Positions 169-61,289 of a DNA stretch of 64,000 bases are shown here, in pieces (the first letter of the stretch is position 1; every line of letters starts with the position of its first letter). A program made the translations under genes and the position numbers. This DNA comes from Elioraea tepida (GTDB taxonomy: Bacteria > Pseudomonadota > Alphaproteobacteria > Acetobacterales > Acetobacteraceae). Below the pieces are notes generated by a model. The model made no database searches and was not told the origin of the DNA. It saw nothing but the letters and a program-made list of their open reading frames with translations. The stretch spans positions 3,277,282 to 3,341,281 of the forward strand of contig NZ_CP076448.1 in assembly GCF_019203965.1 (NCBI RefSeq), given 5' to 3'.

Positions 169-237
169 ACGGATCCTTCCGCATGCTACCGCGTGCCGGA
201 GGCGCCGCACCGGCATGCGCGACGAGGAGACTGACCG

Positions 238-813: not shown

Positions 814-844
814 TCGGAACCGGGCCGGAACGGGCGCGCGCACG

Positions 845-3655: not shown

Positions 3656-3768
3656 GCGGCGCAGCGGGGCGGGGTGTGTGACGGGGCGGTGGGAGCGGGC
3701 CGAGCGCGGCGACCCCGCTCGTGTGATATAGGGGAGGCTTCCCGGCCCGGTCGCGGCGCGGCCGCGGG

Positions 3769-4959: not shown

Positions 4960-5053
4960 CACCTCCTTGCCGCGACTCTATTCTCCGCCGCCGCGGCGGC
5001 GTCCTTCCGGCGCCGCTCCTGCCACAGACACGCGCCAGGATCGACCTTTCGGG

Positions 5054-8232: not shown

Positions 8233-8256
8233 CTGCCGCTTCGGTGCCGTAACGCC

Positions 8257-9321: not shown

Positions 9322-9362
9322 GGGCGAAACGACGGTCGGTGCGGGACGGAGCGCGACGGGCG

Positions 9363-10696: not shown

Positions 10697-10703
10697 GCCG
10701 CTC

Positions 10704-12812: not shown

Positions 12813-12815
12813 CCG

Positions 12816-13637: not shown

Positions 13638-13646
13638 GGCTGCGAA

Positions 13647-13675
13647 CGTCATCTTTTTGAAACGTAATCGTCACG
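13647..13675. promoter_or_regulatory. AT-rich element (cgtcatctttttgaaacgtaatcgtcacg) in the phnX-transporter intergenic region; possible operator/promoter
   Basis: The only AT-rich island in a ~70% GC context, 80 nt upstream of the AEP binding-protein ATG. It contains spaced GTCA half-sites loosely reminiscent of Pho-box or LysR-type sites. Inference only. Confidence 0.25.
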
Positions 13676-13755
13676 CACCTGTCGCGATCGGTGAGAGAGA
13701 GTGGGGGGCGGCGTCCGCTCCGGGCGCCACGTCCACACCACCCCGGGGGTCAGCC

Positions 13756-14781
13756 ATGCTTCGTCGCACGCTTCTTGCCGCCGCAACGCTCGCGCTCGTC
13801 ATGCTGGCCGCCGACGCCTCCGGCCAGCGCACGCGGCTTACCGTCTACACCGCGCTTGAGAACGAGCAGCTTCCCGTGTTCAAGCAGGCGGCGGAGGCGG
13901 CGATCCCCGGGCTCGAGATCGTCTGGGTGCGCGACAGCACAGGCGTGATCACGACCCGCTTGCTCGCCGAGAAGGACAACCCGCGCGCGGATGCGATCTG
14001 GGGCCTCTCCGTCTTCAGCCTCAAGCGTCTCGAGGCGGATGACATGCTCCTTCCCTACACCCCCGCGGGCGCCGAGGCGCTGAGGCCGCAGTTCCGGTCC
14101 GACCGCTCGCCGATGACCTGGGTGGGCTTGGACGCATTCGTTTCTGCCGTGTGCTTCAACACCGTGGTGGCGCGGCAGCGCAACCTGCCCACCCCGCGCA
14201 CCTGGGCCGACCTGCTGAACCCTGTCTATCGCGGGCTGATCGCGATGCCGAACCCGGCCTCCTCCGGCACCGGCCTGCTCACCGTCGCCGGCTGGCTCGG
14301 CACGCAGGGAGAGGAGCAGGCCTGGGCCTTCATGACCCGCCTGCACGAGAACATCGCCGTCTACACCCACAGCGGCTCGGCACCCTGCAACAACGCCGCG
14401 CGCGGCGAATACGCGATCGGCCTCTCCTTCGACATGCGAGCGGTGACGCTGAAGAACCAGGGAGCGCCGATCGAGATCATCGTGCCTACCGACGGTGTGG
14501 GTTTCGACCTCGAGGGGGCGGCCATTCTGCGCGGCACGCGCCAGGAGGCGATGGCGAAGAGGCTGATGGACTTCGCGGTGAGCCGCCCCGCGATGGAGCT
14601 CTACGGTCGCTACTACGCGCTGCTCGGCCTTCCGGGCGTGACGCCGTCGGTGCAGGGCTATCCGCCCGAGTTCGCCGAGCGCCTTGCCAAGGTCGATTTC
14701 GCTACTGTGGCGGCGAACCGTGACCACATCCTCGCCGAGTGGGCGCGTCGGTTCGACGCCAAGTCGGCACCGCGGAACTGA
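13756..14781 (+). CDS. 2-aminoethylphosphonate ABC transporter, periplasmic substrate-binding protein
   Basis: Start chosen at MLRRTLLAAATLALVMLAADASGQ (signal peptide). Iron/AEP-type SBP fold. Genomic context with phnX and the ABC ATPase/permease. Confidence 0.75.
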   Translation: MLRRTLLAAATLALVMLAADASGQRTRLTVYTALENEQLPVFKQAAEAAIPGLEIVWVRDSTGVITTRLLAEKDNPRADAIWGLSVFSLKRLEADDMLLPYTPAGAEALRPQFRSDRSPMTWVGLDAFVSAVCFNTVVARQRNLPTPRTWADLLNPVYRGLIAMPNPASSGTGLLTVAGWLGTQGEEQAWAFMTRLHENIAVYTHSGSAPCNNAARGEYAIGLSFDMRAVTLKNQGAPIEIIVPTDGVGFDLEGAAILRGTRQEAMAKRLMDFAVSRPAMELYGRYYALLGLPGVTPSVQGYPPEFAERLAKVDFATVAANRDHILAEWARRFDAKSAPRN

Positions 14782-14816
14782 GGTGCGGCAACGACTCCGG
14801 GGCGCGTGACGCGGCC

Positions 14817-15959
14817 ATGGACGCATCCGCGGAGGCATCGGCGAAGGCGGGCGCTTCGGTGAGCGTTTCGCGCCCTGAAGCCTCCGCCGATGACTCCTAT
14901 CTCGCCATTCGGCGCCTCACGAAACGGTTCGGCACCTTCACCGCTCTCGACGACATTTCGCTCACGATCCGGCGCGGCGAGTTCGTCTGCTTCCTCGGGC
15001 CTTCGGGCTGCGGCAAGACGACGCTCCTGCGTGCCATCGCCGGGCTCGAGCCGCAGGACGAGGGAACGATCGTCCAGGACGGGCGCGACATCTCGGCGCT
15101 GCCGCCATCGCGCCGGGATTTCGGGATCGTGTTCCAGTCCTACGCCCTCTTCCCCAACATGACCGTGCTCGCCAATGTCGGCTATGGCCTCGCCGCACAG
15201 GGAAAGAGCCGGGCTTTTGTGGAGAACCGGGCGCGCGAGCTCCTGTCGCTTGTGGGTCTTGCCGACCAGTGGTGGAAGTATCCGGCGCAGCTCTCGGGAG
15301 GGCAGCAGCAGCGCGTCGCGCTCGCGCGGGCGCTTGCGATCAGCCCCGGCCTGCTTCTGCTCGACGAGCCGCTCTCCGCGCTCGATGCGCTCGTGCGTGT
15401 CCACCTCCGCGCCGAGATCAAGGCGCTGCAGCGTCGCCTCGGCATCACCACGGTGATGGTCACGCACGACCAGGAGGAAGCACTCTCGATCGCCGACAGG
15501 ATCGTGGTGATGAACCGCGGCCGTATCGAGCAGGTCGGCACGCCTGATGCGGTCTACCGGCGGCCGGAGAGCCTGTTCGTCGCGGGCTTCGTCGGGCGGA
15601 TGAACAGCCTGCCCGGAACGGTGGTCGACTCCTCGACGGTCGCGATCGGCGCGGTTCGGCTCGCGGCGGAGGCCGCTGCGCGCTTCCCCTCCGGAGCGGC
15701 GGTGCAGGTCTGCATCCGGCCGGAAGACGTGCAGCTTGACCGTCCGGGACTTGCGGGGACGCGCCTTGCTGCCACCGTCCGCGGCCTCGAGTATCTCGGC
15801 TCGATCACGCGAATCCCCCTCGAGGCGGCCGGCCTGCCGCTGACGGCAGAGCTGCCCGATACGGCGTTGCGTTCGCTCGCGCCCGAGCCCGGCGGGTCGC
15901 TCACGGTCGTGCTGTCGCCGGATCGGGTGCTGCTCTTCCCCCGCCCGGGCGAAGCCTGA
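14817..15959 (+). CDS. 2-aminoethylphosphonate ABC transporter, ATP-binding protein
   Basis: Walker A GPSGCGKTT, signature LSGGQQQRVALARAL, Walker B LLLDEPLSALD, plus a C-terminal TOBE-like domain. Confidence 0.8.
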   Translation: MDASAEASAKAGASVSVSRPEASADDSYLAIRRLTKRFGTFTALDDISLTIRRGEFVCFLGPSGCGKTTLLRAIAGLEPQDEGTIVQDGRDISALPPSRRDFGIVFQSYALFPNMTVLANVGYGLAAQGKSRAFVENRARELLSLVGLADQWWKYPAQLSGGQQQRVALARALAISPGLLLLDEPLSALDALVRVHLRAEIKALQRRLGITTVMVTHDQEEALSIADRIVVMNRGRIEQVGTPDAVYRRPESLFVAGFVGRMNSLPGTVVDSSTVAIGAVRLAAEAAARFPSGAAVQVCIRPEDVQLDRPGLAGTRLAATVRGLEYLGSITRIPLEAAGLPLTAELPDTALRSLAPEPGGSLTVVLSPDRVLLFPRPGEA

Positions 15960-15964
15960 CCACG

Positions 15965-17671
15965 ATGCTGCCTTTGGCGGGAACGCTCGAGGCACCGGTC
16001 CGGGTCCGGCCGCAGCCCTCGGCCGACGACCACCTGCTCGCCGGCATCGTGCTGCTCGCGGGGCTGTTCCTCGCACTGGCGCTTGCCGCCCCGCTCGGCG
16101 CCCTGCTGCTCAAAAGCTTCCAGGACGACCGGGGCGGCTTCGTAGGTCTTGCGAACTATCTTCGCTACTTCGAAACGCCGGCCCTGATTGGCTCGCTTTG
16201 GAACAGCCTCTGGGTCGCCGCCGTCTCGACGGCGATCGTGCTGCCGCTCGCTTTCGGCTACGCCTATGCGCTCACGCGAAGCGCGATCCCGCTCAAAGCC
16301 CTGTTCCGCGCCATCGCCCTGATCCCGATCCTCGCCCCGTCGCTTCTGCCGGCGCTTGCGCTGATCTACCTCTTCGGCAACCAGGGCATGCTCAAGCCGC
16401 TCCTGATGGGTGGGACGATCTACGGGCCCGCCGGGATCATCGTCTCGCAGGTGTTCTACTGCTTTCCCCCGGCGGTGCTGATTCTCGCGACCGCTCTCTC
16501 GGGGGTAGATGCGCGCCTGTACGAAGCGGCCGAGGCGCTGAGGGCCTCGCGGATCCGCGTGCTCCGAACCGTCACCCTGCCGGCGGCGCGCTACGGCATG
16601 GTCTCGGCCGGGTTCGTGGTGTTCACGCTCGTGATCACCGATTTCGGCATCCCGAAGGTGATCGGCGGCTCGTTCAACGTGCTTGCAACCGATGTCTACA
16701 AGCAGGTGGTCGGGCAGCAGAACTTCCAGATGGGGGCCGTGGTCGGCATGGTGCTGCTCGCCCCCGCCGTGCTCGCCTTCGCGGCCGACCAGTGGGCGCA
16801 GCGTCGGCAGACCGCCACCGTCTCGGCCCGTGCGGTGCCCTATGTGCCGAAGCCGCGGCCGGGGCGTGACCTCCCGCTGCTTATCTTCTGCACCATCCTC
16901 TCGCTTCTCATGGTGGGGCTGATCGGGGTCGCCGCCTGGGGAAGCCTGATCACCTTCTGGCCTTGGAACCTTTCGCTCACGCTTGCCAATTACGACTTCG
17001 CCCGGTTCGACAGCGCCGGCTGGGGAAGTTGGTGGACCAGCGTGCGCATGGCGGCTTGGACGGCGGCGATCGGCGCGCCGCTCGTCTTCGTTTTCGCCTA
17101 CGGGATGGAACGGGCGAAGCGTCTGCCGGCGCTTGTGGGCCTCGTCCGCTTCGCGGCCACCGTTCCGCTTGCCGTGCCCGGGCTCGTGCTCGGAATCGCC
17201 TACATCCTCTTCTTCAACGCTCCCGAAAACCCGCTCGGGTTCCTCTACGGCACGCTCGCGATCCTTGTCCTCAACTCTCTCGTGCACTTCTACACGGTCG
17301 GGCATCTCGCCTCCGTAACGGCGCTGAAGCAGCTCGACCCCGAGTTCGAGAGCGTGGCCGCGAGCCTGAAGGTGCCGCTGTGGCGGACCTTCCTGGCGGT
17401 GACCCTGCCGATCTCCCTGCCCGTGCTGCTCGACGTCGCGATCTATCTCTTCGTCAACACGATGACCACGGTCTCGGCCGTGGTGTTCCTCTACGCTCCC
17501 GACATCAAGCCTGCGGCGGTCGCTCTCGTGCAGATGGACGAGGCGGGCCAGGCCTCGGCCGCGGCGGCGATGGCGATGACGATCCTTGCGACGTCGGCCG
17601 CCGTGAAGGGCCTGCATCTCGCGGCGGATCGTGCGCTCGCGCACCGAACCGAGGCGTGGCGCCGGGCCTGA
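15965..17671 (+). CDS. 2-aminoethylphosphonate ABC transporter permease (fused two-domain)
   Basis: 568-aa polytopic ORF containing two ABC-permease EAA-like loops. Immediately follows the ATPase. Confidence 0.8.
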   Translation: MLPLAGTLEAPVRVRPQPSADDHLLAGIVLLAGLFLALALAAPLGALLLKSFQDDRGGFVGLANYLRYFETPALIGSLWNSLWVAAVSTAIVLPLAFGYAYALTRSAIPLKALFRAIALIPILAPSLLPALALIYLFGNQGMLKPLLMGGTIYGPAGIIVSQVFYCFPPAVLILATALSGVDARLYEAAEALRASRIRVLRTVTLPAARYGMVSAGFVVFTLVITDFGIPKVIGGSFNVLATDVYKQVVGQQNFQMGAVVGMVLLAPAVLAFAADQWAQRRQTATVSARAVPYVPKPRPGRDLPLLIFCTILSLLMVGLIGVAAWGSLITFWPWNLSLTLANYDFARFDSAGWGSWWTSVRMAAWTAAIGAPLVFVFAYGMERAKRLPALVGLVRFAATVPLAVPGLVLGIAYILFFNAPENPLGFLYGTLAILVLNSLVHFYTVGHLASVTALKQLDPEFESVAASLKVPLWRTFLAVTLPISLPVLLDVAIYLFVNTMTTVSAVVFLYAPDIKPAAVALVQMDEAGQASAAAAMAMTILATSAAVKGLHLAADRALAHRTEAWRRA

Positions 17672-17674
17672 GGC

Positions 17675-18397
17675 TCAGAACTGGCCGCGCTGGAGGCGGA
17701 ACACGTCGGGGTTCAGCGGATCGGCCACGTAGGCGAGGCGGAGGCCGAAGGGGCGCGGCGCCGTCGGCGCCGCGTTCGCGGGCGGAGCGGCCGGCAGGAG
17801 CTGCAGCTGCACCATCCGCCCCTGCTCGTCGAGGCCGCGGAAGATGAGCGTTGAGCCGTCCGCGAGCAGAACCCCGCCTGCGACCGACCCTGCGCGCCAC
17901 GCAAGGGCGGCGAAGTGCTTCCTCAGCGCCTCCGCCGCGTTGATCAGCGCGTCCTGCCGGACCGTCGGGTCGGCGGGAGGGCCCCAGAGGATGGTGACCT
18001 GGATCAGCCGCTTCGTCTGGTGCCCGAGCGTGTAGGACACGCGCGCCGTGCCGGTGTCGGGGATCAGGTTCGGCACCGTGACGGTCAGCACCTGCGTGCG
18101 CTCAACCGGTGTCTGTTCGGAGACGATCCGTTCCGCTGCCTGCGGAAAATCGCGCCTTATGGCGGCACGCACCTCCGCCTCCGTCATGCCGAAGCGTGCG
18201 GAGCGGAACCCCTCGACAGCTGCGGCCTCCAGGGGGGGTGACTGTGCCGGCGGTGCGGCCGGAGAAGGGGGCGCGGGCTGCGTCTGCTGCGCCGCGGCTC
18301 GCGGCTGTGCCTGTGCGTCCGCCTGCGGGCGAGCAGATTGTGCAGCGGCAACGCCGGCTACCAGCAGGGCGAGGAGGACGGGAACGGAATGGCGCAT
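17675..18397 (-). CDS. Hypothetical exported protein (signal peptide plus Ala/Gln/Pro-rich linker)
   Basis: Minus-strand ORF starting at the ATG at 18397: MRHSVPVLLALLVAGVAAAQS..., then a PAQ-rich low-complexity stretch and a globular C-terminus. The upstream part of the 499-aa track ORF is antisense shadow of vgrG. Confidence 0.55.
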   Translation of the reverse strand: MRHSVPVLLALLVAGVAAAQSARPQADAQAQPRAAAQQTQPAPPSPAAPPAQSPPLEAAAVEGFRSARFGMTEAEVRAAIRRDFPQAAERIVSEQTPVERTQVLTVTVPNLIPDTGTARVSYTLGHQTKRLIQVTILWGPPADPTVRQDALINAAEALRKHFAALAWRAGSVAGGVLLADGSTLIFRGLDEQGRMVQLQLLPAAPPANAAPTAPRPFGLRLAYVADPLNPDVFRLQRGQF

Positions 18398-18484
18398 GGA
18401 CGCGACGATGCCCGATGCCGCGCGTGTGCGCCACCCGGGCGCGTGACGGGGCTGACTTCCCCGAGGTAGTCTCCGCGGAGGAGG

Positions 18485-20484
18485 ATGCGCGGGCCGATGC
18501 TGCCGATCATCCAGACCGAGAAACGGACGATGGGCCTCTCGTCCGGGCCCTTTCCGCCCGACTCGCTCATCCCCGAGCGCGTCACCGGCAGCGAATCGCT
18601 CTGCGGTCTGTTCTCCTACGACATCGATTTCCTGACCGACCAGACGGAGCTGAAACCCGCCGAGCTGCTCGGCAAGAAGCTCGGCCTCGAACTCGGCAAG
18701 GGCACGCCCGATCGGGCCTTCATCAACGGCCACGTGGTGCGGCTTTCGCTCGGGGACTATCTCGGCGGCAACTACGGCATGGCCTATCGCCGGATCTCCT
18801 GCCGGATCGTTCCGTGGTTCTGGTTCCTCGACCATACGACCGACTGCCGCGTCTTCCAGAACCGCACCGTCCAGGAGATTCTCGAGACGCTGTTCGGCGA
18901 CGCCGGCTTCACCGACGACAAGTTCTTGCTCCGGGGCAGCCTCGCGCCGCGCACCTACGTGCTCCAGTACAACGAGACCGACTACGCCTTCGCCTGCCGG
19001 CTGATGGCCGAGGAGGGCCTCGTGTGGTGGGTGGCCTCGACCGCCGAGACGCATACGCCGATCATCACCAACCACAATGACGGTCTGAGGGCCTCGGGCG
19101 CCCAGCCCTTGAAGCTGCCGCCGCGCGAGGCGTCGCAGGTGCGCAACAGCTTCGACAGCCTTCGAGAGACCCACGTCTGGAAGCCCGGCAAGGTTGCGGT
19201 CAGCGACTCAGAGTTCCGAGCGATCTCGACCGATCTGACGACAGAGAAATCCTCGCTGCTCGGCCTGCCGCTCGCCGACAAGTTCGAGATCTTCGTCTGG
19301 CCCGGGCGCTTCCCCACAAAGGGAAAGGGCGACAGCCCGGCGGCCCGCAGCGACGGCGAGCCGCTCGCGACACACCTCGTCGAGGCGCTCGAGTCGGAAG
19401 CGACACGGCTCGAATCGCGACGGATTCCCACGCGCCGATGCTCGGCGTGCCGATCGAGATCCTCGACAACGCCCAAGCCTCAAGCGGAACGCCCTACCTG
19501 ATCGAGCGGCTGAGCCGAACGATGGCGGATGAGATCCATCTCAATGCGCGCGCCATTCCCGTCTGTCGCACCACGGTGAGCGCCTTCCCGGCCGGCACGA
19601 CCTATCGGATGCGGCCCGTTCCCGAACGGCCGAAGCTCCCGAACCTGATGCTCGGCAGGGTCGTCGGGCCGAAGGGAGAGGAGATCCATGTCGACGAGTA
19701 TGGCAGGGTGAAGGTCCAGTTCCTGTGGGACCGTCTCGGCGAAGGCGACGAAAACGCCTCGTGCTGGATGCGGCTCTCCCAGGCCTGGGCCGGCAGCGGC
19801 TTCGGGATCATGGCGCTGCCGCGGATCGGCATGGAGGTGATCGTCGGCTTCCTAGACGACGACCCCGATCACCCGGTGGTGCTCGGCTGCCTGCACAACA
19901 ACGAGAACAAGGTGCCCGTCGCGCTTCCCGAGAACAAGACGCAGACGGGGATCGTGACCAGGTCCTCGACGGGCGGGGGAAGCTCCGACTACAACGCGCT
20001 TCTGTTCGAGCACAAGGCAGGGTCGGAGAAGGTAACGTTCCAGGCACAGAAGGACTACGAGCGCCTTGTCAAGAACAACGAGAAGGTGACGATCAAGGCG
20101 AATCGCACGCTGCTGATCGAAGGCAAACAGAAATATGATGTCAAAGGCGACTATGACCTGACGGTGCAGCAGGGCAACCACAAGGTCGAGATCAGCAAGG
20201 GCAAGTTCGACACCAAGGTCGGCATGGGGAACATGTCGGTCAAGGTGTCGATGGGCAACCTCTCGACGAAGGTCAACCTCGGCAAGATCGACAGCGAGGC
20301 GATGCAGTCGATCGAGTTCAAGGTGGGCACCAGCTCGGTCAAGATCGACCAGATGGGCGTAACCATCAAGGGCATGATGATCAAGATCGAAGGCACCGTC
20401 ATGCTCGAGGCCAAGGGCCTGATGACGAAGGTGAGCGGCGACGGGATGATGATGCTGAAGGGCGGCATCATCATGATCAATTGA
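18485..20484 (+). pseudogene. vgrG: Type VI secretion spike protein VgrG, interrupted by a frameshift near 19420-19440
   Basis: N-terminal part (18485-19501 frame) has gp27-like VgrG motifs (LFSYDIDFLT, RAFINGHVVRLS, DYAFACRLMAEEGLVWWV). The remainder (19438-20484 frame) has the gp5/beta-helix part (GRVKVQFLWDRLGEGDENASCWMR, VLGCLHN, repetitive KV..G C-terminus). The two halves are in different frames. Confidence 0.8.
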
Positions 20485-20491
20485 GGCGTGC

Positions 20492-21079
20492 ATGACGCCG
20501 GAGCGGCCGCCCGTGAAGCTCGCCTCCGCTGCTCCGCGGACGGTTCTGGAGCGTGCCGATCTCGCGCCGGAGGCGGCGGCTCTGGCAGGCGGCGCCTCGG
20601 ATTCGGCGGCGGCGCTGCGGCGGCTGATCGAGGCCGGCATGCTGGCCGATGCCGCGCGCTTCCTCGCCCACGCCCTGCCGAAGCGCGAGGCGGTGTGGTG
20701 GGCCTGCATGTGCGCACGAGCGACCGCCCCTGAGCCGCCACCGCCCGATGCCGAGGCATTGGCCGCCGCCGAGGCGTGGGTGCGTAAGCCTGACGAGGAG
20801 CATCGTCGCGCCGCCATGGCGAAGGCCGAAGGCGCGGGCTTCCGCAGCCCCGAGGCCTGGGCCGCGGTCGCCGCCTTCTGGTCGGGCGGCAGCATGGCCC
20901 CGGCCGGCCAGCCGGTCGTTCCGCCAGCAGAGCATCTTACTGGTGTCGCGGTCGCCGGTGCGGTCTCGCTCGCTGCCGTCCGGCGCGAGCCGGAGAAGGC
21001 GGAGGCGACGCTGCGGCGCTTCCTCGACAGCGGGCTCGACATCGCCGCCGGCGGTGCGGGCCGGATCGCCCCAGCCTGA
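20492..21079 (+). CDS. Hypothetical Ala-rich protein between vgrG and PAAR (possible T6SS adaptor/accessory)
   Basis: 195-aa ORF tightly spaced in the vgrG-PAAR operon. No recognisable motif; family not identified from sequence alone. Confidence 0.45.
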   Translation: MTPERPPVKLASAAPRTVLERADLAPEAAALAGGASDSAAALRRLIEAGMLADAARFLAHALPKREAVWWACMCARATAPEPPPPDAEALAAAEAWVRKPDEEHRRAAMAKAEGAGFRSPEAWAAVAAFWSGGSMAPAGQPVVPPAEHLTGVAVAGAVSLAAVRREPEKAEATLRRFLDSGLDIAAGGAGRIAPA

Positions 21080-21091
21080 GGAGGCAGCCCC

Positions 21092-21385
21092 ATGTTCCCC
21101 GCCGCGCGCATCACCGATATGCATCTCTGCCCGATGTCCTCCGGGCCGGTGCCGCATGTCGGTGGGCCGATCCTGCCGCCCGGAGCGCCGACGATTCTGA
21201 TCATGGCCCTGCCGGCGGCGCGCGTGACCGATCTCTGCGCCTGTGTAGGGCGGCCGGACGTGATCGTGCGCGAGTCGGCCACGGTGATGATCATGAACCT
21301 CCCTGCCGCGCGGGTGCTCGATAATTGTGCGCATGGCGGAATGATCGTCATCCCCGGGGCGCCGACGGTCCTGATCGGCGGGTGA
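21092..21385 (+). CDS. PAAR-domain protein (T6SS spike tip)
   Basis: Three PAAR motifs (FPAARITD, LPAARVTD, LPAARVLD) in 97 aa. No toxin extension. Confidence 0.8.
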   Translation: MFPAARITDMHLCPMSSGPVPHVGGPILPPGAPTILIMALPAARVTDLCACVGRPDVIVRESATVMIMNLPAARVLDNCAHGGMIVIPGAPTVLIGG

Positions 21386-21389
21386 GGCG

Positions 21390-21971
21390 GTGACGGACCT
21401 CGTTCTCTCCATCGTCCGCTGCCTCGACGCCGCCGTGCCGGCCACACGGCGCGTGACGGGGGGCAAGCCCTCGATCGGCCGCGGTGAGGATAATGACTGG
21501 GTTCTCGTCGATCCGAACCGGCATCTCTCCAAGCGTCACTGCACCATCGCCTTCCGCTCGGGCCGCTGGATCGTGACCGACCTTTCCACCAACGGCACGT
21601 TCCTTGACCGCGCCCGAGAGCCGATCGGCCGCGGCGCCTCCGCGCCGCTGCGCGACGGCAGCCGGCTCACCCTCGGCGAGTACGAGATCGAGGTGCGGCT
21701 CGAGGAGCGCGAGGCCAGCGCCCCTGGCCTCGGTGCCGCGAACCCGTTCGACGACGATCCCTTCGCTCTCCCGAAGCCCGCACCGGCGCCGTTCGAGAAC
21801 GATCCGTTCGGGCGTGACCCGTTCGCGGACGAACCACTGGCACGGCCGGTCGCGACCGACCCCTTCGCCGGTCTTGGCGGCGGCCCCGCTCCGGCCGCCC
21901 CCGTGATCCCGGCGGATTTCGACCCGCTCTCCGACATCGAGCGCGGCGACCGGCTCTCCGACCGCTCCTGA
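21390..21971 (+). CDS. FHA-domain protein (T6SS Fha/TagH-like)
   Basis: FHA core SIGRGEDNDWVLVDPNRHLSKRHCTIAFRSGRWIVTDLSTNGTFL, followed by a Pro/Asp/Phe-rich tail. 4-nt spacing after PAAR. Confidence 0.75.
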   Translation: MTDLVLSIVRCLDAAVPATRRVTGGKPSIGRGEDNDWVLVDPNRHLSKRHCTIAFRSGRWIVTDLSTNGTFLDRAREPIGRGASAPLRDGSRLTLGEYEIEVRLEEREASAPGLGAANPFDDDPFALPKPAPAPFENDPFGRDPFADEPLARPVATDPFAGLGGGPAPAAPVIPADFDPLSDIERGDRLSDRS

Positions 21972-21994
21972 ACGGCGGGAGGAAGCCGGCCGGA

Positions 21995-23500
21995 TCATCT
22001 CCCTGCCGTCTCGGATGCCTTCGCTCCGCCGCCCGTGGTGCGGAACACGATCCCGGACGACAGGGATCTCGACCTGCCCGGGCCGTCGAGCCCGGCGCCC
22101 GAGGCGCCGCCGCCACCCGTGCCAGAACAGCGCGATCCTTTCACTGCACCGGCGGCAGGCGCTCCGCCGAGGCCGGCGGCGGCTCCGGAGGCCGTTCCGC
22201 CCTCGAGCATGATGACCGGGCACGGCCTTGCCGCCACCGTTGCGCCGCCGCGTGCGCCGACCGCGCCCTCGCCGCCCGGGGGCCAGGCCGGAACGGGTTC
22301 GGCCGGCGAGGGCGAGCGGCTGCTGGCGACGGGCCCCGGCGCAGCGGGCGTGACGGGCGGGGGCGTGGCGAGGGCGACGGGGGGCGGCGGGCTCGGCGTC
22401 GTCGCGGCCGGAAGCGTTGCCTGGGCCGTTGCCTGCGGCGCCGCCGGCTCAGGCGTGGGAGCGTCGGTGCCGCGCCCAAACAGGAGGAAGGCGGCAACGC
22501 CCGCCGCGACCACGGCGCCCGCGCCCCCCGCCACAAGGCCGAAGGGAAGCCCCTTCTTCGTGACGGGCGGCTGCGTCCCAGACCGGACGGGGACCGAAAC
22601 GGCGGGGCGGTCGGACGGCGCGCTGGCAACGACGGTCACTTCGGTGTCAGCCCCGCCGAGCAGGCCAAGCAGCGGGTCGGAGGCCTCCGCCTCGTGCATC
22701 GCTTCGGCAATCGCCTCGCGGAACGCTGCCGCGGTCTGGAATCGTTCGGCGGGACGCTTCGCCATCGCCTTTCGCACCACCGCGTCGAAAACGGGCGGAA
22801 CCGAGCCCGCGATCTCGGACGGCCGCGGCGGCTCGACATTCAGCACCTTGTGCATGATCGCGGTGAGGTTGCCCTCGAAGGGCTTGTCGCCGGTGAGCGA
22901 CTGATAGAGCACGACGCCGGCGGAATAGAGGTCGGTGCGCGCGTCCGCCGGCTCGCCGCGGAACTGCTCGGGCGACATGAGGCGGGCGTTCCGAGCACCG
23001 TTCCCGCCTACGTCATCGTCGAACTCTCGATCCGGGCGATGCCGAAATCGGCGACCTTCACCTGCCCGCTCCCGGTGAGCATCATGTTGGCAGGCTTGAT
23101 GTCGCGGTAAACCACGCCCTTCTCGTGCGCATGCCCAAGCGCGGCGAGGAGCTCGTCCATCACCCGAGCGACCTGCGGCAGCGGCAGCCGCTCGCCGGCA
23201 TCGAGGCGTGTCTCCAACGATCCGCCGTCGACATGCTCCATCACGATGTAGGCGAGATCGCCCTCTTCGCCGTAGTCGTAGACCGCGACGATGTTCGGGT
23301 GCGAGAGCCTGCCCGCGGCCTGGGCCTCGCGCTTGAACCGGGCGATCTCCTCCTGCGCCTCGGCATCGTGCGCGTCGAGCGTGACGGTCTTGATCGCGAC
23401 GATCCGGTCGATCACCGGGTCGCGCGCGCCACACCGTGCCCGCCGCACCCTTGCCGATGGCCGTGATGATCTCGTACTTGCCGAGACGTTCGAGGTTCAT
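21995..23500 (-). pseudogene. Membrane Ser/Thr protein kinase (PpkA-like) with two frameshifts in the catalytic domain
   Basis: Start MNLERLGKYEIITAIGKGAAGTVWRAR (Gly loop) at 23500. Subdomains II-VII (VAIKTV, HPNIVAVYDY, HRDIKPANMML, VKVADFGIA) lie in a different frame (ORF 23008-23448). The original frame then resumes (MSPEQFRGEPADARTDLYSAGVVLYQ), followed by a TM segment and a Pro/Ala-rich tail. Confidence 0.7.
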
Positions 23501-23725
23501 GCGCAAGCCCGTCTCCGTCGCCTCCTTGGTCCTAGACCGGTGCGGGGGCGACGCGGAAGAATGACGGGCGGCGCTCGCGGCCGGAGCTGCCTCAGAGGCT
23601 CGTCGTGCCGAGCGCCTCATGTCTACAGCGGCTGAAGGACTCCACTCGGCTCCACGCGCGAGGCGGCGAAGACAGCCGCGCGCGCCCTTCCGAAGGGGAG
23701 GGATGGGAGACATGGGGAGAAACGG

Positions 23726-24997
23726 ATGAGAAGGTGATTCCTCGCGGCTGCGGCCGCGGTCGCGATGGCTCTTGCCGTGCCCGGGGCGGCCTCGGCGCAG
23801 CAGGAACCTATTCAGATCGGCATCCTCGTCGCCCTCGAGGGCGCGTTCGCGGAAGGCGGCAGGGACGGCATTCGCGGCATCGAGCTCGCGCTGCGGACCG
23901 TCAACAACACGATCGCGGGCCGGCGGATCGAGACCATCATCGCGCCGACTGACACCCGCCCCGACACCGCCGTGCGCCAGGCACGCAAGCTGATCGAGCA
24001 GGACCGGGTCGACTTCGTGATCGGCCCGCTCTCCGGCTCCGAGGGGATCGCGATCCGCGACTACGCCAAGACGGTTCCCGACAGGACCTTCATCAACGGC
24101 GCCTCCGGCGCGCTTGAGGCGACCTGGGTCGATCCGGCGCCGAACTTCTTCCGGTTCCACACGCACGGGCCGCAGTGGGGCGCGGGCTTGGGCGAATACG
24201 TGGTCCGCACCAAGGGCTGGCGCCGGATCTCCACCGTCGCGGCCGACTACTCGTTCGGCCACACCAACTTCATGGGCTTTGCGATCGACGTCTGCCGCAA
24301 CGGCGGCGACATCGTGCGCCGCTTCTGGGTGCCGCTCGGCTCGGCCGATTTCGCTGCCGTGATCGCGCAGCTCCCCGACGACGTCGACGCCATCTATCTC
24401 GGCCTCGGCGGCACGGATGCGATCAACTTCCTCAACCAGTACGCTCAGGCCGGGTCGAAGATGAACTTCATCGGCGGCACGATCATGGCAGACCAGACCG
24501 TTCTGACCTCGCGCGGGCGCGCGCGCGAGGCGCTGATCGGCACGCCGACCTCCGGGATGAAGTCGGACGAGAACCCCGATCCGGCGTGGCAGGAGTTCGT
24601 GCAGCGCTACCGCGCCGCCTATCCGGAGGGGCAGCGCTTCCCCTCGCCGACGATCTTCGCGACCGGCTACTACCTCAGCACGCTCGCGGCGGTCGAGGCG
24701 CTGAAGAAGGGCAATGGCGATCTCTCAGGCGGGCAGAGGGCGTTCCAGCAGGCGCTTGCGACGCTCGAGCTTGACACGCCGCTCGGCAAGATCAAGCTCG
24801 ACGAGACGCGCCAGGCGATGGGGCCGGTGTTCGTCAACGAGGTGACAGCGCGGCCTGACGGCACACTCGACAACCGGATGGTCAAGGGCGTGGACAACGT
24901 GTCGCAGACGCTCGGGCTGCCGGTGGAGGAGTTCCGGGCGCTCGGCCTACCCTCGCGCGACACGCCCGACTGCGCACGGCTGAGGACGCGCCGCTGA
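23726..24997 (+). CDS. livK: Branched-chain amino acid-type ABC substrate-binding protein (LivK-like); in-frame TGA at codon 4 of the predicted signal peptide
   Basis: A GGAGA RBS plus ATG at 23726 gives MRR[TGA]FLAAAAAVAMALAVPGAASAQ... The ORF track begins at the internal ATG at 23765, which would leave no signal peptide. PBP type-1 fold (Leu/Ile/Val-BP family). Confidence 0.7.
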
Positions 24998-25149: not shown

Positions 25150-26163
25150 GTGACCGCTCTCGCGCGCGCCAACCCGGTGGTCGTGCTCGTCGTCGCGATC
25201 CTCCTGGCGTTCGTGCTCTGGCTCATCTTCGCACCCTGGCCGCCGGGCGTGACGGCCGTGATGGGCCCGAAACGGGTGTTCCTGAGCGCGCTGCTCTCGG
25301 GCATCACGCTCGGCGCCCTCTACTTCCTGGTCGCAAGCGGCTTCACGCTGATCTTCGGGCTGATGCGCAACGTCAATCTCGCGCACGGCTCGCTCTATCT
25401 GCTCGGCGGCTATCTCGGCTTCGAGATCGCCGACAGGACGGGGGCGTGGCTGCTCGCCTTCCCGGTCGTGGTCGTGCTCGTTGCGCTGCTCGGCGTGGTG
25501 CTGCAGCATCTCGTGTTCCGCCGGATGGAGGGCGAGGAGCTGCGGCAGACGCTAGTCACGATCGGCCTCTCGATCGTGATCGCCGACATCCTGCTGTGGA
25601 TCTGGGGCGGCAAGTCCTACCAGATCCTCACGCCCGACTTCCTCGCGGGGCCGATCGATCTGCCGCTCGTGACGGCGATTCGCTCCGACGGCACGGCCGT
25701 CTATCTCCGCTATCCGCGTGTTCGGATCTGGATCCTGATCGCCGCCATCGTGGTTGGTGTGGCGATGTGGCGTGTGATGACCCGCACGCGCATCGGCATG
25801 CTGATCCGCGCTGGGGTGGATGACCGCGATATGCTCGCCGCCTCCGGCCTGCCGATCCAGGCTATGTTCGTTCTTGTCTTCGCCTTCGGCGCGGGACTTG
25901 CTGGGATCGCGGGAATCATCGGCGGCACCTTCCAGTCGCTCGCCCCGGGCGAGGACACGCGGTTCCTGCTCGCGAGCCTCGTGGTGGTGATCGTGGGCGG
26001 GATGGGGTCGTCCCCCGGGGCGGCGCTCGGCGCCCTGATCATCGGGCTCGCCGAGCAGCTCGGCGTGGTCTACGCCCCGACCTACTCGGTCGTGTTCACC
26101 TTGCTCATCATGGCGGCGGTGCTCGCGTTCCGGCCGCAGGGCCTGCTTGGGCGGAAAGGCTGA
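25150..26163 (+). CDS. livH: Branched-chain amino acid-type ABC permease (LivH-like)
   Basis: 337-aa polytopic ORF with the LivH-family pattern (NLAHGSLYLLGGY ... GGMGS). Confidence 0.85.
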   Translation: MTALARANPVVVLVVAILLAFVLWLIFAPWPPGVTAVMGPKRVFLSALLSGITLGALYFLVASGFTLIFGLMRNVNLAHGSLYLLGGYLGFEIADRTGAWLLAFPVVVVLVALLGVVLQHLVFRRMEGEELRQTLVTIGLSIVIADILLWIWGGKSYQILTPDFLAGPIDLPLVTAIRSDGTAVYLRYPRVRIWILIAAIVVGVAMWRVMTRTRIGMLIRAGVDDRDMLAASGLPIQAMFVLVFAFGAGLAGIAGIIGGTFQSLAPGEDTRFLLASLVVVIVGGMGSSPGAALGALIIGLAEQLGVVYAPTYSVVFTLLIMAAVLAFRPQGLLGRKG

Positions 26164-27222
26164 TGGCGGTGGCCGGAGAGGCGCGGACGGCTGCGAGCGA
26201 GATGCCGTTCGGCGCGCTCGGCCGCATCCCTGCCGCGATCTGGGCGGTTGCGGCGCTGCTCCTGCTGATGCCGACATTCGCCAACAATTTCGTCCTGTTC
26301 CAGGTGTTCGGCTGGACCTTCATCCTCGGCATGATTGCCCCGTCTCTGATGTCCCTCGCGGGCTATGGCGGCATGGTGAGCCTGATCCAGATGACTGTCG
26401 CGGGGCTTGCCGGCTACATGGTCGCGATCCTTGGGCCCTCGGGCACGGAGCAGGTGAGCCTCGGCCTTGCGTGGTGGATCACCGTTCCGGCTGCGATCGT
26501 CGTCGCGACCCTGTTCGGAACGCTCGTCGGCGCGCTCGCGGTGCGCACCGAGGGCATCTACACAATCATGATCACGCTCGCGATCGCGGCCGCCTTCTTC
26601 TATTTCACGCGGCAGAACTACACGATCTTTCAACGGGTACTCTGGCTTCAGCCTGGTGGTTCCACCGCGCCTGTTCGGGATCGACTGGCGCCAGCCAATC
26701 CCCTTCTACTATCTGAGCCTCGGCTGTGCCGCGCTTGCCTACGCCGCGGTGGTCTATGTCTCGCGCGCGCCGTTCGGGCTTGCGCTCCAGGGCGTGCGCG
26801 ACAACGCCCGCCGCATGGCGGCGCTCGGCTACAACGTCGTCTGGCACCGGATCCTCGCCTACAGTTTCGCTGCCGTGATCGCCTCCTTCGGCGGAATCCT
26901 GCTCGTCTGGCAGAACGCCCAGATCGCACCTGGAACGGCCGGCATCCCGGCGGTCATCGACATTCTCGTGATCGCCGTGGTGGGCGGGATGCGCCACCCG
27001 ATCGGCCAATTCATCGGCGCCTTCATCTATGTGCTGCTCAGTTCCTTCGCCCCCGATGTGCTGACGACCTTCGGCCTCGCTCCCGATCGCTTCAAGCTGC
27101 TCGTGGGCTTGGGCTTCCTTGCGGTCGTGTATTTCTGACCGGATGGGGTGCTCGGGCTGTGGGAAAGGGCGCGGCGAAAGATGCGCGAACGCACTGACCC
27201 GCTCACTGGGCAGCCGCGATGA
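26163..27222 (+). pseudogene. livM: ABC permease LivM-like; frameshift near 26628-26633 and in-frame TGA at 27136-27138
   Basis: N-part ...FFYFTRQNYTIF in one frame; continuation NGYSGFSLVVPPRLFGIDWRQPIPFYYL in another (+1 in a cttt run). After TGA 27136 the frame continues with the family-typical PDGVLGLWERARRK and ends in an ATGA overlap with livG (27219-27222). This argues the TGA is secondary. Confidence 0.75.
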
Positions 27223-28013
27223 TCGAAGCTGGGCCGGACACCGCCGCTCGGCTCGGCTCGGTCAGCAGCGGGAACGCGCTCGATCTGCGCGGCGTGACAC
27301 GGATGTTCGGCGCGCTTGCTGCGATCGCCGACGTGACGATGACGGTCCGCCCTGGCGAGCGCTGCGCCGTGCTCGGCTCGAACGGTGCGGGCAAGACGAC
27401 GCTGTTCAACTGCATCACCGGGGACATCCTTCCGAACTCGGGCACAATCAGACTGTTCGGCGAGGACGTGACCCGCTTCCCCCCGCACGAGCGGATCCGG
27501 CGCGGGCTGCGCCGCACCTACCAGATCTCACTCCTGTTCGGGGGCCTCACGGTCGCCGACAATGTAGATCTCGCCTGCCGAGGGGTCTCGCGCTGGAGGT
27601 TCTCGCTGTTGCGGCCGCGCCGTGGCGACCCGCTTCTCGCGCGGACGGACGAGCTGATCGAGGCCGTGCATCTGACGCGCGCGCGCGGCCGGCTCGTCTC
27701 GGAACTCTTCTACGGACAGCAGCGCCAGCTCGAGATCGCTCTCGCGCTTGCCGGAGCTCCGCGGTTCATTCTCTTCGATGAACCTGCCGCCGGGCTGTCA
27801 CCGACCGAGCGACGCGAGCTCATCGAGATCCTGACGAACCTGCCGCGTCATATCGGGTTCATCATCATCGAGCACGACATGGATGTCGCGCTGCGCGTCG
27901 CCGAGAGCGTGTCGATGATGCACAACGGCCGCGTGTTCAAGGAAGGGACGCCGGCCGAGATCGAGAACGACTCGGAGGTTCAGGCGCTCTATCTCGGAGG
28001 GGCGCATGGCTGA
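27219..28013 (+). CDS. livG: ABC transporter ATP-binding protein (LivG-like)
   Basis: Walker A GSNGAGKTT, signature YGQQRQLEIALAL, Walker B ILFDEPAAGL. Confidence 0.85.
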   Translation: MIEAGPDTAARLGSVSSGNALDLRGVTRMFGALAAIADVTMTVRPGERCAVLGSNGAGKTTLFNCITGDILPNSGTIRLFGEDVTRFPPHERIRRGLRRTYQISLLFGGLTVADNVDLACRGVSRWRFSLLRPRRGDPLLARTDELIEAVHLTRARGRLVSELFYGQQRQLEIALALAGAPRFILFDEPAAGLSPTERRELIEILTNLPRHIGFIIIEHDMDVALRVAESVSMMHNGRVFKEGTPAEIENDSEVQALYLGGAHG

Positions 28014-28853
28014 ACGCTCCCGCGCGCCTGCCCTCGAGATCCGCGGCCTCAACGTGTTCTACGGTGCAAGCCACGCGCTTCAGGGTGTGGATCTCGTGCT
28101 CGAGGGCTGCGTTCTCGCTGTCGTTGGCCGAAACGGGATGGGCAAGACGACGCTGTGCAAGGCCATCATGGGGTTCGTTCCGGTCGCATCGGGAACGATC
28201 CGTTTTGCCGGGCAGTCGCTCGTCGGGCGCTCGACCTCCGAGATCGCTCGGCTCGGTGTGGGGCATGTTCCGCAGGGGCGGCGGCTCTGGCGGTCGCTCA
28301 CCGTCGATGAGCATCTTCGCCTCGTTGTGCGCCCAGGCGGGGCGTGGACGGTCGAGCGCATCTACGCCACCTTCCCCGCCTTGCCGAGCGGCGCAACAAT
28401 GGCGGGGGCCAGCTCTCGGGCGGCGAGCAGCGGATGCTCGCGATCTCGCGCGCTCTGCTTCAGAACCGACGCCTGCTCGTGATGGACGAGCCGACGGAGG
28501 GGCTCGTCCCTGTGATCGTCGAGCAGGTCGAAGCGTTGCTCGCGCGCCTCGCTGAGGAGGGAGACCTCGAGGTTCTGCTGATCGAGCAGAACATCGGCGT
28601 TGCCTGCGCGATCGCCGACCGCGTCGCGGTGATGGTGAACGGGCGGATCAACCGGATCGGGCCGGCGCGCAAACTTGCGGCGGATGTCGAGCTGCAGCAG
28701 CGCCTGCTCGGGGTTGGACGCCACGGCCACGAGGAGGACGCAGCGCCCGCGGCCGCGGACGCTGCCCCGGCGCAGGCCGAGGCCGGGCCGAAACTGGCGA
28801 AGATCTTCCTTTCCAACCCGGTTCGGCCGACGCGATGGTCGCAGCCCGTTTAG
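28006..28853 (+). pseudogene. livF: ABC transporter ATP-binding protein (LivF-like) with a 1-nt deletion in a C-run (~28374-28378)
   Basis: N-part GRNGMGKTTL...VERIYATFP in frame 1. The signature/Walker B part (RLAERRNNGGGQLSGGEQRMLAISRALL...LVMDEPTEGL) is in frame 0. accttccccgcc has 4 C where 5 would restore the frame. Confidence 0.75.
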
Positions 28854-28951
28854 GTAGAGCAGCTCGAGCGCATGGCCCGGGTGTTGACGGCGCAATCACC
28901 CGGGCCGGGCACGACGGCGCACGCCGAGCTTCGTCCGCTCGCGAGCCCGGG

Positions 28952-31027: not shown

Positions 31028-31057
31028 GACGGTCGGAGGAGTACGGAGCATGATGCC

Positions 31058-33374: not shown

Positions 33375-33377
33375 GCC

Positions 33378-33815: not shown

Positions 33816-33819
33816 GGCG

Positions 33820-38279: not shown

Positions 38280-38282
38280 ACG

Positions 38283-41138: not shown

Positions 41139-41151
41139 GGGAGAGGGTGTC

Positions 41152-42000: not shown

Positions 42001-42016
42001 TCGGAGGCGAGAGGCG

Positions 42017-61288: not shown

Positions 61289-61289
61289 C

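What the first reader, a model, noticed from the sequence alone, without database searches (positions are those of the whole stretch)
18485..23500. Orphan T6SS spike and regulatory module without core genes
A tight + strand operon vgrG - 195-aa hypothetical - PAAR - FHA (4-12 nt spacers) converges on a PpkA-like transmembrane Ser/Thr kinase. The module lies between a phosphonate locus and an amino-acid ABC transporter. No TssA-M core, Hcp, ClpV or PppA phosphatase is in the window, and no toxin domain is attached to VgrG or PAAR. The FHA/kinase pair is the threonine-phosphorylation arm that post-translationally controls some T6SSs. Both vgrG and the kinase are frameshifted, while PAAR, FHA and the small ORF are intact. 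The module is either an auxiliary cluster of a T6SS encoded elsewhere or a decaying remnant.
Basis: partly seen in the sequence, partly recalled or inferred. Interest (0 to 1): 0.6.

Follow-up and report, generated by a model that had tools for sequence, protein, structure and literature searches.

The report
Deletion scar of a lost T6SS
This is the leftover of a bacterial type VI secretion (contact-killing) gene cluster: a ~26 kb deletion removed 12 of the 13 core genes, what remains is decaying, and such relics are ordinary.

Summary
The 195-aa ORF is DUF6931 (PF22011, E 7e-58), not a known adaptor family.

The module is not an auxiliary island. In Elioraea relatives with the same left flank (81.6% DNA identity in one 9.9 kb alignment), the same four genes open the main T6SS cluster. 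That cluster runs tagH, tssJKLM, tagF, pppA, hcp x2, clpV, tssA, tssB, tssC x2, tagJ, tssEFG, three more genes, then a convergent ppkA.

In the window a ~26.1 kb deletion joins tagH (near codon 313) to the antisense of the ppkA linker, at 22329-22354. So the FHA gene is not intact. It lacks its T6SS_FHA_C domain and has TGG->TGA at 21969-21971.

The kinase lacks its DUF4384 C-terminal domain. It also has CAG->TAG, a -1 and a -2 frameshift, and HRD->YRD. vgrG has a -1 frameshift at 19425/6.

Seventeen independent metagenome contigs share the junction, and the later lesions vary among them. Many neighbouring accessory genes are also broken.

Verdict: a recent, real, decaying T6SS remnant. Interest is low. 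The one lead is DUF6931, a conserved and uncharacterised T6SS gene.

The parts
18485..20484 (+). vgrG pseudogene. It is split into two frames by a 1-bp deletion at 19425/19426. It has no C-terminal toxin extension.
   Evidence: Pfam Phage_GPD on the 5' part; Phage_base_V and Gp5_trimer_C on the 3' part. With the frameshift repaired it scores 427 bits on TIGR03361, cutoff 186. The deletion is absent from close relative L081, where vgrG is intact at 662 aa, and present in the 10 other aligned contigs; the 6 unaligned ones show the same split gene call.
20492..21079 (+). Intact 195-aa DUF6931 gene. This is a conserved, uncharacterised accessory gene of this T6SS type.
21092..21385 (+). Intact 97-aa PAAR gene with three PAAR motifs and no extension.
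   Evidence: PF05488, E 6.5e-22. It is 97 aa in all 17 related contigs. Within the population it carries 6 nonsynonymous and 1 synonymous change.
21390..22328 (+). tagH (T6SS FHA protein) remnant. The FHA domain and Pro-rich linker survive. A premature TGA lies at 21969-21971, and the 3' end is cut by the deletion just before the T6SS_FHA_C domain.
   Evidence: Pfam FHA. tblastn with E. rosea TagH aligns residues 2-284 of 475 to 21396-22286 in one frame, straight through the stop. The MAFFT alignment extends the match to GEGERLLA at 22305-22328. TGG in three relatives is TGA here. TIGR03354 gives 111 bits, below the 120.25 cutoff, and matches only model positions 17-175 of 420.
22329..22354 (.). 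Junction of the ~26.1 kb deletion. tagH near codon 313 is joined tail-to-tail to the antisense of the ppkA periplasmic linker.
   Evidence: TagH homology ends at 22328. On the kinase side, the motif PPPPVALATPPP (22390-22355, - strand) matches PPPPVALAPPP in P0001 and PPPPALAQPP in the Ga0598058 partial kinase, about 30 aa after the TM helix. Window 12264-22112 aligns to Ga0598058_000573 positions 1-9820 in one HSP, and nothing in the window matches contig positions 9821-36190.
22355..23502 (-). ppkA-like Hanks kinase remnant: kinase domain, TM helix (about 22549-22478) and the start of the linker. Lesions are a 2-bp deletion at 23420, HRD->YRD, TAG at 23008-23010 and a 1-bp deletion at 22979. 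The C-terminal DUF4384 domain is deleted.
   Evidence: Pfam Pkinase on the 23008-23448 piece. Intact orthologs are 676-760 aa with Pkinase plus DUF4384.
23503..23764 (.). Second rearrangement boundary. Upstream of ppkA, relatives carry a CHAT-domain gene and a two-partner-secretion locus. Here the LIV operon abuts instead.
   Evidence: The ORF upstream of the kinase in L084 is 85% identical to the E. rosea CHAT protein (L085). No homology to window 23503-23900 was found.

Best explanation
The region is the non-functional scar of the organism's main type VI secretion cluster.

The ancestor resembled today's Elioraea relatives. It carried a ~36 kb cluster whose first operon was vgrG-DUF6931-PAAR-tagH-tssJ-tssK-tssL-tssM-tagF-pppA. 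Then came hcp x2 and clpV on the other strand, then tssA-tssB-tssC-tssC-tagJ-tssE-tssF-tssG, a methyltransferase, an OmpA-domain gene and an unknown gene. A convergent ppkA closed the cluster.

In that system the Hanks kinase PpkA, the PP2C phosphatase PppA, the FHA protein TagH and TagF would form the threonine-phosphorylation switch. VgrG and PAAR, probably with DUF6931, would form the spike. These roles are inferred from the known families.

One ~26.1 kb deletion had both end points in Pro-rich, low-complexity linker-coding DNA of tagH and ppkA. It removed 20 whole genes, including 12 of the 13 core genes, plus the 3' parts of both regulators. Their stumps were left fused tail-to-tail at 22329-22354. 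This step is shown.

The stumps and the spike genes then began to decay. All 12 aligned sequences share the tagH TGA; the ppkA TAG was read base by base only in the window and L081, and gene calls in the other contigs (kinase pieces ending and restarting at the same place) fit it. The vgrG -1 and ppkA -1 deletions came next, in 11 of 12. The ppkA (CG) -2 deletion is in 4 of 12, and other contigs have further private nonsense or indel changes. The lesions are shown; their order is inferred from how they are shared.

The loss is recent compared with the split from T6SS-bearing relatives. On the long branch the remnant genes still show omega of about 0.2, while polymorphism within the lineage looks relaxed.

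Nothing in the module can assemble or regulate a T6SS. DUF6931 and PAAR are still open, most likely because they are short (0.88 kb together).
For: Synteny:
- E. rosea PF-30 (L006), Elioraea bin.267 (L005) and JGI contig Ga0598058_000573 share the phosphonate ABC genes, the lipoprotein gene and vgrG-DUF6931-PAAR with the window. They then continue into a full T6SS cluster.
- One blastn HSP joins window 12264-22112 to contig 1-9820 at 81.6% identity. The other 26 kb of the contig has no counterpart in the window.
- Intact kinase orthologs (685-760 aa, Pkinase plus DUF4384) sit convergent to tssG, the methyltransferase, the OmpA-domain gene and the unknown gene.

Junction and lesions:
- The junction is mapped at protein level to 22329-22354.
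- The lesions are verified codon by codon against relatives.

Independent assemblies:
- The same junction and gene fragments occur in 17 independently assembled contigs from different samples: L081, L086-L095 and L098-L103.
- The indels are shared in nested subsets of the contigs.

Window content and selection:
- None of the 57 other candidate genes of the window that were scanned is a T6SS core gene.
- The TagH remnant falls below the TIGR03354 cutoff.
- Population pN/pS is 0.68 in the remnant and 0.39 in the left flank. PAAR has 6 nonsynonymous to 1 synonymous changes, and the FHA part 9 to 1.
- Neighbouring accessory genes are also broken while the housekeeping block is intact, so decay is selective and is not random sequencing error.
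Against: - The whole genome could not be examined. A second T6SS elsewhere that still uses DUF6931/PAAR (or the intact vgrG of the L081 variant) is not excluded.
- The excess of nonsynonymous polymorphism in the remnant over the left flank is not significant (Fisher p = 0.13).
- DUF6931 has only 2 nonsynonymous to 3 synonymous polymorphisms and keeps every invariant residue. That is compatible with continued constraint.
- Most contigs were retrieved through an exact DUF6931 match, which biases the sample towards an intact DUF6931.
- The ancestral cluster is reconstructed from relatives only 81-87% identical, so the exact deleted content in the direct ancestor is inferred.
Confidence: 0.9

Rival explanations
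1. The module is a functional auxiliary (orphan) vgrG-PAAR island. It supplies spike components, and FHA/kinase regulation, to a T6SS encoded elsewhere in the genome.
For: DUF6931 and PAAR are intact in every contig seen. vgrG is intact in one variant, L081. The rest of the genome could not be searched.
Against: - The locus is positionally orthologous to the head of the main cluster in relatives, not to a satellite island.
- vgrG is frameshifted in the window and split in 16 of the 17 related contigs (indel seen directly in the 10 aligned ones), with a further nonsense allele in one.
- tagH lacks its T6SS-specific C-terminal domain and has a stop codon. The kinase has a stop codon and lacks its sensor domain.
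- No effector/immunity pair is present.
- PAAR and FHA polymorphism is almost all nonsynonymous.
Confidence: 0.04
2. The arrangement, the frameshifts, or both, are assembly or sequencing artefacts. For example, a mis-join across the low-complexity Pro-rich linkers, or homopolymer errors.
For: Both breakpoints lie in GC-rich, low-complexity DNA that assemblers handle badly. The E. rosea kinase contig in fact ends inside this linker. Many genes in the window are frameshifted.
Against: - Seventeen other contigs from different samples and two assembly sources share the identical junction and flanks on contigs up to 357 kb.
- The indels are shared in nested subsets rather than scattered at random.
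- Two lesions are base substitutions that create stop codons, not indels.
- The 11.5 kb housekeeping block and the phosphonate genes have no frameshift in the window.
Confidence: 0.01
3. The T6SS is lost, but DUF6931 (perhaps with PAAR) is kept by selection for a function that does not need the apparatus. One example is an orphan immunity-like protein that protects against T6SS-armed Elioraea relatives in the same mats.
For: - A preprint independently labels a Pseudovibrio DUF6931 as 'SsdA-like immunity'.
- DUF6931 has 2 nonsynonymous to 3 synonymous polymorphisms, against 15 to 2 for PAAR plus FHA (Fisher p = 0.055).
- All invariant residues are retained.
- T6SS-positive Elioraea are known from hot-spring sources.
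Against: - There is no sequence-level link to SsdAI, and Foldseek finds nothing.
- No deaminase or other toxin gene is adjacent in any locus.
- DUF6931 is a fixed, conserved member of the core cluster (76/78 loci), unlike variable effector/immunity cargo.
- Its long-branch omega rose from 0.08 among intact relatives to 0.19 in this lineage.
- At the observed lesion density an intact 0.88 kb is expected by chance about one time in three.
- The contigs were retrieved through DUF6931 itself.
Confidence: 0.08

Closest known systems
Main T6SS cluster of Elioraea and other Acetobacteraceae (E. rosea PF-30 contig VFAC01000035; JGI Ga0598058_000573). It is an imp/Agrobacterium-like T6SS with the TagH-PpkA-PppA-TagF threonine-phosphorylation pathway.
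   Same: Same chromosomal position and left flank. The vgrG, DUF6931, PAAR, tagH 5' part and ppkA 5' part are orthologous, with 65-87% amino-acid identity to E. rosea/Ga0598058 (vgrG N-terminus only 43% to L005), and have the same order and orientation.
   Different: The window lacks the 26 kb between tagH (near codon 313) and ppkA (near codon 385), and so lacks 12 of the 13 core genes. The genes that remain carry stop codons or frameshifts, except DUF6931 and PAAR.
Degenerate T6SS loci described in other bacteria, for example Salmonella serotypes (PMC2907695) and Aliivibrio salmonicida (PMC2627896). Both papers were retrieved by keyword search; only their titles and abstracts were read.
   Same: A T6SS cluster reduced by internal deletion and pseudogenes. 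Here, as in A. salmonicida, the genome shows wider gene decay.
   Different: This case is in a thermophilic free-living alphaproteobacterial lineage. The junction is mapped to within 26 bp, and the later lesions are still polymorphic in natural populations.
Auxiliary or orphan vgrG islands (vgrG, adaptor such as DUF4123/DUF1795/DUF2169, PAAR, effector and immunity).
   Same: A vgrG, a small unknown ORF and PAAR in a tight operon, away from any core genes in this genome.
   Different: There is no effector/immunity pair. The small ORF is DUF6931, not a known adaptor family. The locus is orthologous to the main cluster rather than a satellite, and vgrG is broken.
SsdAI, the immunity protein of the P. 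syringae T6SS deaminase toxin SsdA (PDB 7JTU; PMC7901873).
   Different: Only 14% identity. No profile-sequence match and no Foldseek match. No adjacent deaminase toxin. DUF6931 holds a fixed core-cluster position between vgrG and PAAR/tagH.

Membership tests
Functional T6SS gene cluster | Presence of the 13 core genes tssA-tssM (including hcp, clpV and vgrG) | tested here: not met
   A Pfam scan of 57 of the 63 candidate genes of the window (the six shortest outside the module were skipped) finds only vgrG, and that is broken. Relatives have all 13 at this locus.
VgrG / TssI (TIGR03361, PF05954+PF04717) | Full-length match to the VgrG model in one open reading frame | tested here: not met
The gene is split by a 1-bp deletion at 19425/6.
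PAAR (PF05488) | PAAR-motif domain above the gathering score, in an intact ORF | tested here: met
   78 bits against a cutoff of 27, in a 97-aa intact ORF.
TagH / Fha1 (TIGR03354; PF00498 + PF20232) | N-terminal FHA domain plus the C-terminal T6SS_FHA_C domain | tested here: not met
   The FHA domain is present (59 bits). T6SS_FHA_C is absent. TIGR03354 gives 111.4 bits, below the 120.25 cutoff, and matches model positions 17-175 of 420. The E. rosea ortholog scores 301 bits over positions 17-418. A premature TGA is present.
PpkA-type T6SS Hanks kinase | Intact kinase domain with catalytic HRD, a TM helix and a periplasmic sensor domain, encoded in a T6SS cluster with pppA and an FHA protein | tested here: not met
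   The kinase domain is recognisable, but it carries TAG, -1 and -2 frameshifts and HRD->YRD. The DUF4384 sensor domain is deleted. The cluster association holds in relatives. The orthologs carry DUF4384 in the periplasmic part; from my own knowledge, not tested here, P. aeruginosa PpkA carries a vWA domain there instead.
DUF6931 (PF22011) | Match above the Pfam gathering score | tested here: met
   195.3 bits against a cutoff of 27, covering profile positions 2-145 of 145.
T6SS adaptors DUF4123 / DUF1795 (EagR) / DUF2169 | Pfam match of the small ORF to one of these families | tested here: not met
   hmmscan at E <= 0.01 returns only DUF6931 for the 195-aa ORF.
Auxiliary (orphan) vgrG island | Located away from the main cluster and carrying an effector/immunity pair used by a T6SS encoded elsewhere | tested here: not met
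   The locus is orthologous to the head of the main cluster. No effector or immunity domains were detected. Whether another T6SS exists elsewhere cannot be tested here.
SsdAI-like immunity proteins | Homology to SsdAI and adjacency to a cognate deaminase toxin | tested here: inconclusive
   [not shown]

The most novel reading that the evidence does not exclude
DUF6931 is a previously unrecognised functional component of this widespread T6SS type. It would be either an SsdAI-like immunity or neutralising protein, or a VgrG/PAAR chaperone. In this lineage it would be kept under selection after the apparatus was lost, as an orphan protective gene against T6SS-armed relatives that share the hot-spring mat.
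Probability: 0.08. Interest if true: 0.5.

Novelty: new member of a known kind. Interest (0 to 1): 0.2.

Why it matters
The case matters mainly for annotation. A vgrG-PAAR-FHA-kinase group with no core genes looks like an orphan module. Comparison with relatives shows it is a deletion scar, so its genes should be annotated as pseudogenes and not as a regulatory or auxiliary T6SS unit.

It also gives a cleanly dated example of T6SS loss in a natural thermophilic population. The junction is mapped to within 26 bp, and the later lesions are still segregating.

Two wider leads follow. First, DUF6931 is a conserved T6SS gene with no known function, a confident predicted fold and no literature. Second, this Elioraea lineage shows polymorphic decay of many accessory genes.

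Tried and rejected
- Adaptor hypothesis for the 195-aa ORF (DUF4123, DUF1795, DUF2169). Rejected by Pfam: only DUF6931 matches.
- Frameshifts as sequencing errors. Rejected: they are shared in nested subsets of independent assemblies, two lesions are substitutions, and housekeeping genes are clean.
- DNA-level mapping of the kinase side of the junction. A 42-nt blastn hit (22357-22397 against L084) proved to be a low-complexity mis-register that maps before the TM helix in L084. I replaced it with the positional PPPPVALA motif.
- tblastn with whole kinases against the window gave dozens of spurious Pro-rich hits.
- Foldseek against the PDB for DUF6931 found nothing with E < 0.4.
- A profile search of PDB sequences gave no meaningful hit.
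- The afdb50 fold library was unavailable.
- A literature search for Elioraea plus pseudogenes returned nothing.
- Selection tests: the pN/pS contrast between the remnant and the left flank is not significant (p = 0.13). Long-branch omega does not separate remnant genes from flank genes, which only shows that the loss is recent.
- A second T6SS elsewhere in the genome could not be tested. Only the 64 kb window and 20 kb pieces of related contigs are accessible.

Full report
**What is in the sequence**

The window has about 70% G+C. On the + strand there are four tightly spaced genes:
- vgrG in two frames, 18485-19501 and 19438-20484, with Phage_GPD on the first part and Phage_base_V plus Gp5_trimer_C on the second.
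- A 195-aa ORF, 20492-21079.
- A 97-aa PAAR gene, 21092-21385.
- A 193-aa FHA ORF, 21390-21971.

The spacers are 7, 12 and 4 nt.

On the - strand a Hanks-type kinase starts at 23502. Reading the DNA shows it changes frame at about 23420. It then meets an in-frame TAG at 23008-23010, changes frame again at 22979, passes a TM helix (about 22549-22478) and runs on as Pro/Gly/Ala-rich sequence to 21995.

The 195-aa ORF is DUF6931 (PF22011, 195 bits). It does not match DUF4123, DUF1795 or DUF2169. VgrG and PAAR carry no toxin domain.

**Relatives show what the locus used to be**

A back-translated search with DUF6931 found 80 loci. The closest are Elioraea species, at 73-84% identity.

Two of them, E. 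rosea PF-30 (L006) and Elioraea bin.267 (L005), also share the window's left flank: the phosphonate-type ABC ATPase, the permease and a divergent lipoprotein gene. There vgrG is a single 689-aa ORF. The FHA protein is 475 aa, with FHA plus T6SS_FHA_C. It is followed by tssJ, tssK, tssL (DotU-OmpA), tssM, tagF and a PP2C phosphatase.

A search with the repaired kinase found intact orthologs of 676-760 aa carrying Pkinase plus a C-terminal DUF4384. In L082 and L083 such a kinase is convergent on an unknown gene, an OmpA-domain gene, a methyltransferase, tssG, tssF, tssE, tagJ and tssC.

One 36,190-nt JGI contig, Ga0598058_000573, carries the whole cluster. Its DUF6931 is 86% identical to the window's. 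Its gene order is:
- HAD, SBP, ABC ATPase, permease, lipoprotein (- strand).
- vgrG (689 aa), DUF6931, PAAR, tagH (478 aa), tssJ, tssK, tssL, tssM, tagF, pppA.
- hcp, hcp and clpV on the - strand.
- tssA, tssB, tssC, tssC, tagJ, tssE, tssF, tssG, methyltransferase, OmpA-domain gene, a 342-aa gene.
- ppkA on the - strand, cut by the contig end.

**The deletion**

blastn gives one collinear HSP, window 12264-22112 to contig 1-9820 at 81.6% identity. Nothing in the window matches the remaining 26 kb of the contig.

At protein level, E. rosea TagH residues 2-284 align to 21396-22286 in a single frame, straight through the stop codon of the 193-aa ORF. A multiple alignment carries the match on to GEGERLLA (22305-22328), opposite G(P)GEELLAA of the relatives. 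That point lies just before the T6SS_FHA_C domain, and after it all similarity ends.

On the other strand the kinase keeps the motif PPPPVALATPPP (22390-22355) about 30 residues after its TM helix. This matches PPPPVALAPPP in P0001 and PPPPALAQPP in the partial Ga0598058 kinase. A short blastn hit that I first used for this side was a low-complexity mis-register and is discarded.

The junction therefore lies in 22329-22354. In Ga0598058 coordinates the missing span runs from about 9,977 to about 36,050, roughly 26.1 kb. It holds 20 whole genes plus the 3' parts of tagH and ppkA.

The long Gly/Ala-rich tail of the kinase ORF is simply the antisense of the tagH remnant.

Upstream of ppkA, relatives have a CHAT-domain gene and a two-partner-secretion locus. 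These are also absent here, so 23503-23764 marks a second breakpoint.

**Point lesions**

Alignment with relatives shows:
- tagH: TGG (Trp) becomes TGA at 21969-21971.
- ppkA: CAG becomes TAG at 23008-23010.
- ppkA: the catalytic HRD is YRD in the window.

Comparison with the 98.9%-identical contig L081 shows three indels in the window:
- -1 in vgrG at 19425/6.
- -1 in ppkA at 22979 (TAC becomes TC, within GTPAYMSPEQ).
- -2 in a (CG)n run of ppkA at 23420.

Even with its stop repaired, the TagH remnant scores 111 bits on TIGR03354, below the 120.25 cutoff, and matches only model positions 17-175 of 420. The repaired VgrG is a good TIGR03361 match at 427 bits.

**The remnant is real and shared by a population**

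Exact-protein look-ups returned 17 further contigs from different ENA and Logan assemblies, 16 to 357 kb long. All carry the same remnant and the same flanks. One source run, SRR5451356, is listed among 60 C hot-spring mat samples that yielded Synechococcus JA-3-3Ab-type genomes.

In a 12-sequence alignment the indels are shared in nested subsets:
- vgrG -1 and ppkA -1 are in all but L081.
- ppkA (CG) -2 is in 4 of 12.

The tagH TGA is in all twelve; for the ppkA TAG, the alignment covers only the window and L081, and the other contigs have matching gene calls. Other contigs have extra private lesions, such as a vgrG nonsense allele and a broken FHA ORF in L099. This rules out an assembly artefact and gives an order of events.

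**Selection**

Within the population, pN/pS is 0.68 for the remnant, 0.39 for the left flank and 0.84 for the decaying LIV operon. PAAR shows 6 nonsynonymous to 1 synonymous changes, the FHA part 9 to 1, and DUF6931 2 to 3. The contrasts are weak: p = 0.13 for remnant against left flank, and p = 0.055 for DUF6931 against PAAR plus FHA.

On the long branch separating this lineage from three T6SS-bearing relatives, the remnant genes have omega of about 0.2, like the flanking genes.

About five disabling lesions lie in about 4.1 kb of remnant. At that density an intact 0.88 kb (DUF6931 plus PAAR) is expected by chance about one time in three (my own Poisson estimate).

**The rest of the window**

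Pfam scans of 57 of the 63 candidate genes outside the module (six short ones of 59-111 aa were not scanned) found no T6SS core gene.

The housekeeping block at 238-11525 (frr, uppS, cdsA, dxr, rseP, bamA, skp, lpxD, fabZ, lpxA, lpxI) is intact. Many accessory genes are split or truncated: livM, livF, UPF0261, PEP_hydrolase, cox-type genes, an amidohydrolase, SGL, DUF6311 and others. Their state varies among the contigs. The T6SS scar is thus one of many decaying loci in this lineage.

**DUF6931**

In the 80 related loci, vgrG lies directly upstream in 76 of the 78 where this can be assessed. tagH follows in 65 of 68, and PAAR lies between them in 58 of 77. DUF6931 is therefore a fixed member of the core cluster, not variable cargo.

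The only paper that mentions the family is a preprint that calls a Pseudovibrio copy 'DUF6931/SsdA-like immunity'. Its function remains open. This is the only part of the locus with any novelty, and it is not specific to this window.

**Verdict**

The 'decaying remnant' reading is strongly supported, and the 'auxiliary cluster' reading is not. This is a new instance of a known phenomenon, a degenerate T6SS locus in a genome undergoing gene decay. I score its interest as low.

Noticed in passing
window 26163-45090 and 56189-63291: Many accessory genes are split or truncated by Pfam coverage: livM, livF, UPF0261, PEP_hydrolase, a flotillin-like gene, coxG/L/D/E-like genes, an amidohydrolase, SGL, DUF6311, an ABC ATPase, an AMP-binding enzyme and an SBP. 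The housekeeping block 238-11525 is fully intact. This points to selective, genome-wide decay of accessory functions in this hot-spring Elioraea lineage.
   Followed up: partly
window 16856-16912 (phosphonate ABC permease); L086-L095: A 17-bp deletion and a nearby 1-bp deletion occur together in six related contigs. Together they remove 18 nt, which restores the frame (562 aa). The 1-bp deletion alone splits the gene (318 + 252 aa) in others, and the window has neither (568 aa). This looks like a compensatory frame restoration segregating in the population.
   Followed up: partly
[not shown]
   Followed up: partly
window 23503-23764; L084 1-513; L085 1-9933: In the closest relatives with an intact kinase, ppkA is preceded by a CHAT-domain protein and a two-partner-secretion (ShlB/TpsA) locus. 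These are absent from the window, where the LIV operon abuts instead. This marks a second rearrangement next to the T6SS scar.
   Followed up: partly
L096 15793-19150; L082 11974-15470: The intact Elioraea-type T6SS clusters carry three unusual genes between tssG and ppkA: a SAM methyltransferase with a MethyTransf_Reg domain, an OmpA-domain protein and a 342-377-aa protein with no Pfam hit. They also carry duplicated tssC and hcp.
   Followed up: no
window 23765-24997 versus L081 and L086-L103: The LIV substrate-binding protein is a single 406-410-aa ORF in the window. It is called as 327 + 59 aa, or 182 + 59 aa, in all related contigs. In the LIV operon, therefore, the window holds the more intact allele for some genes and the broken one for others (livM).
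   Followed up: no
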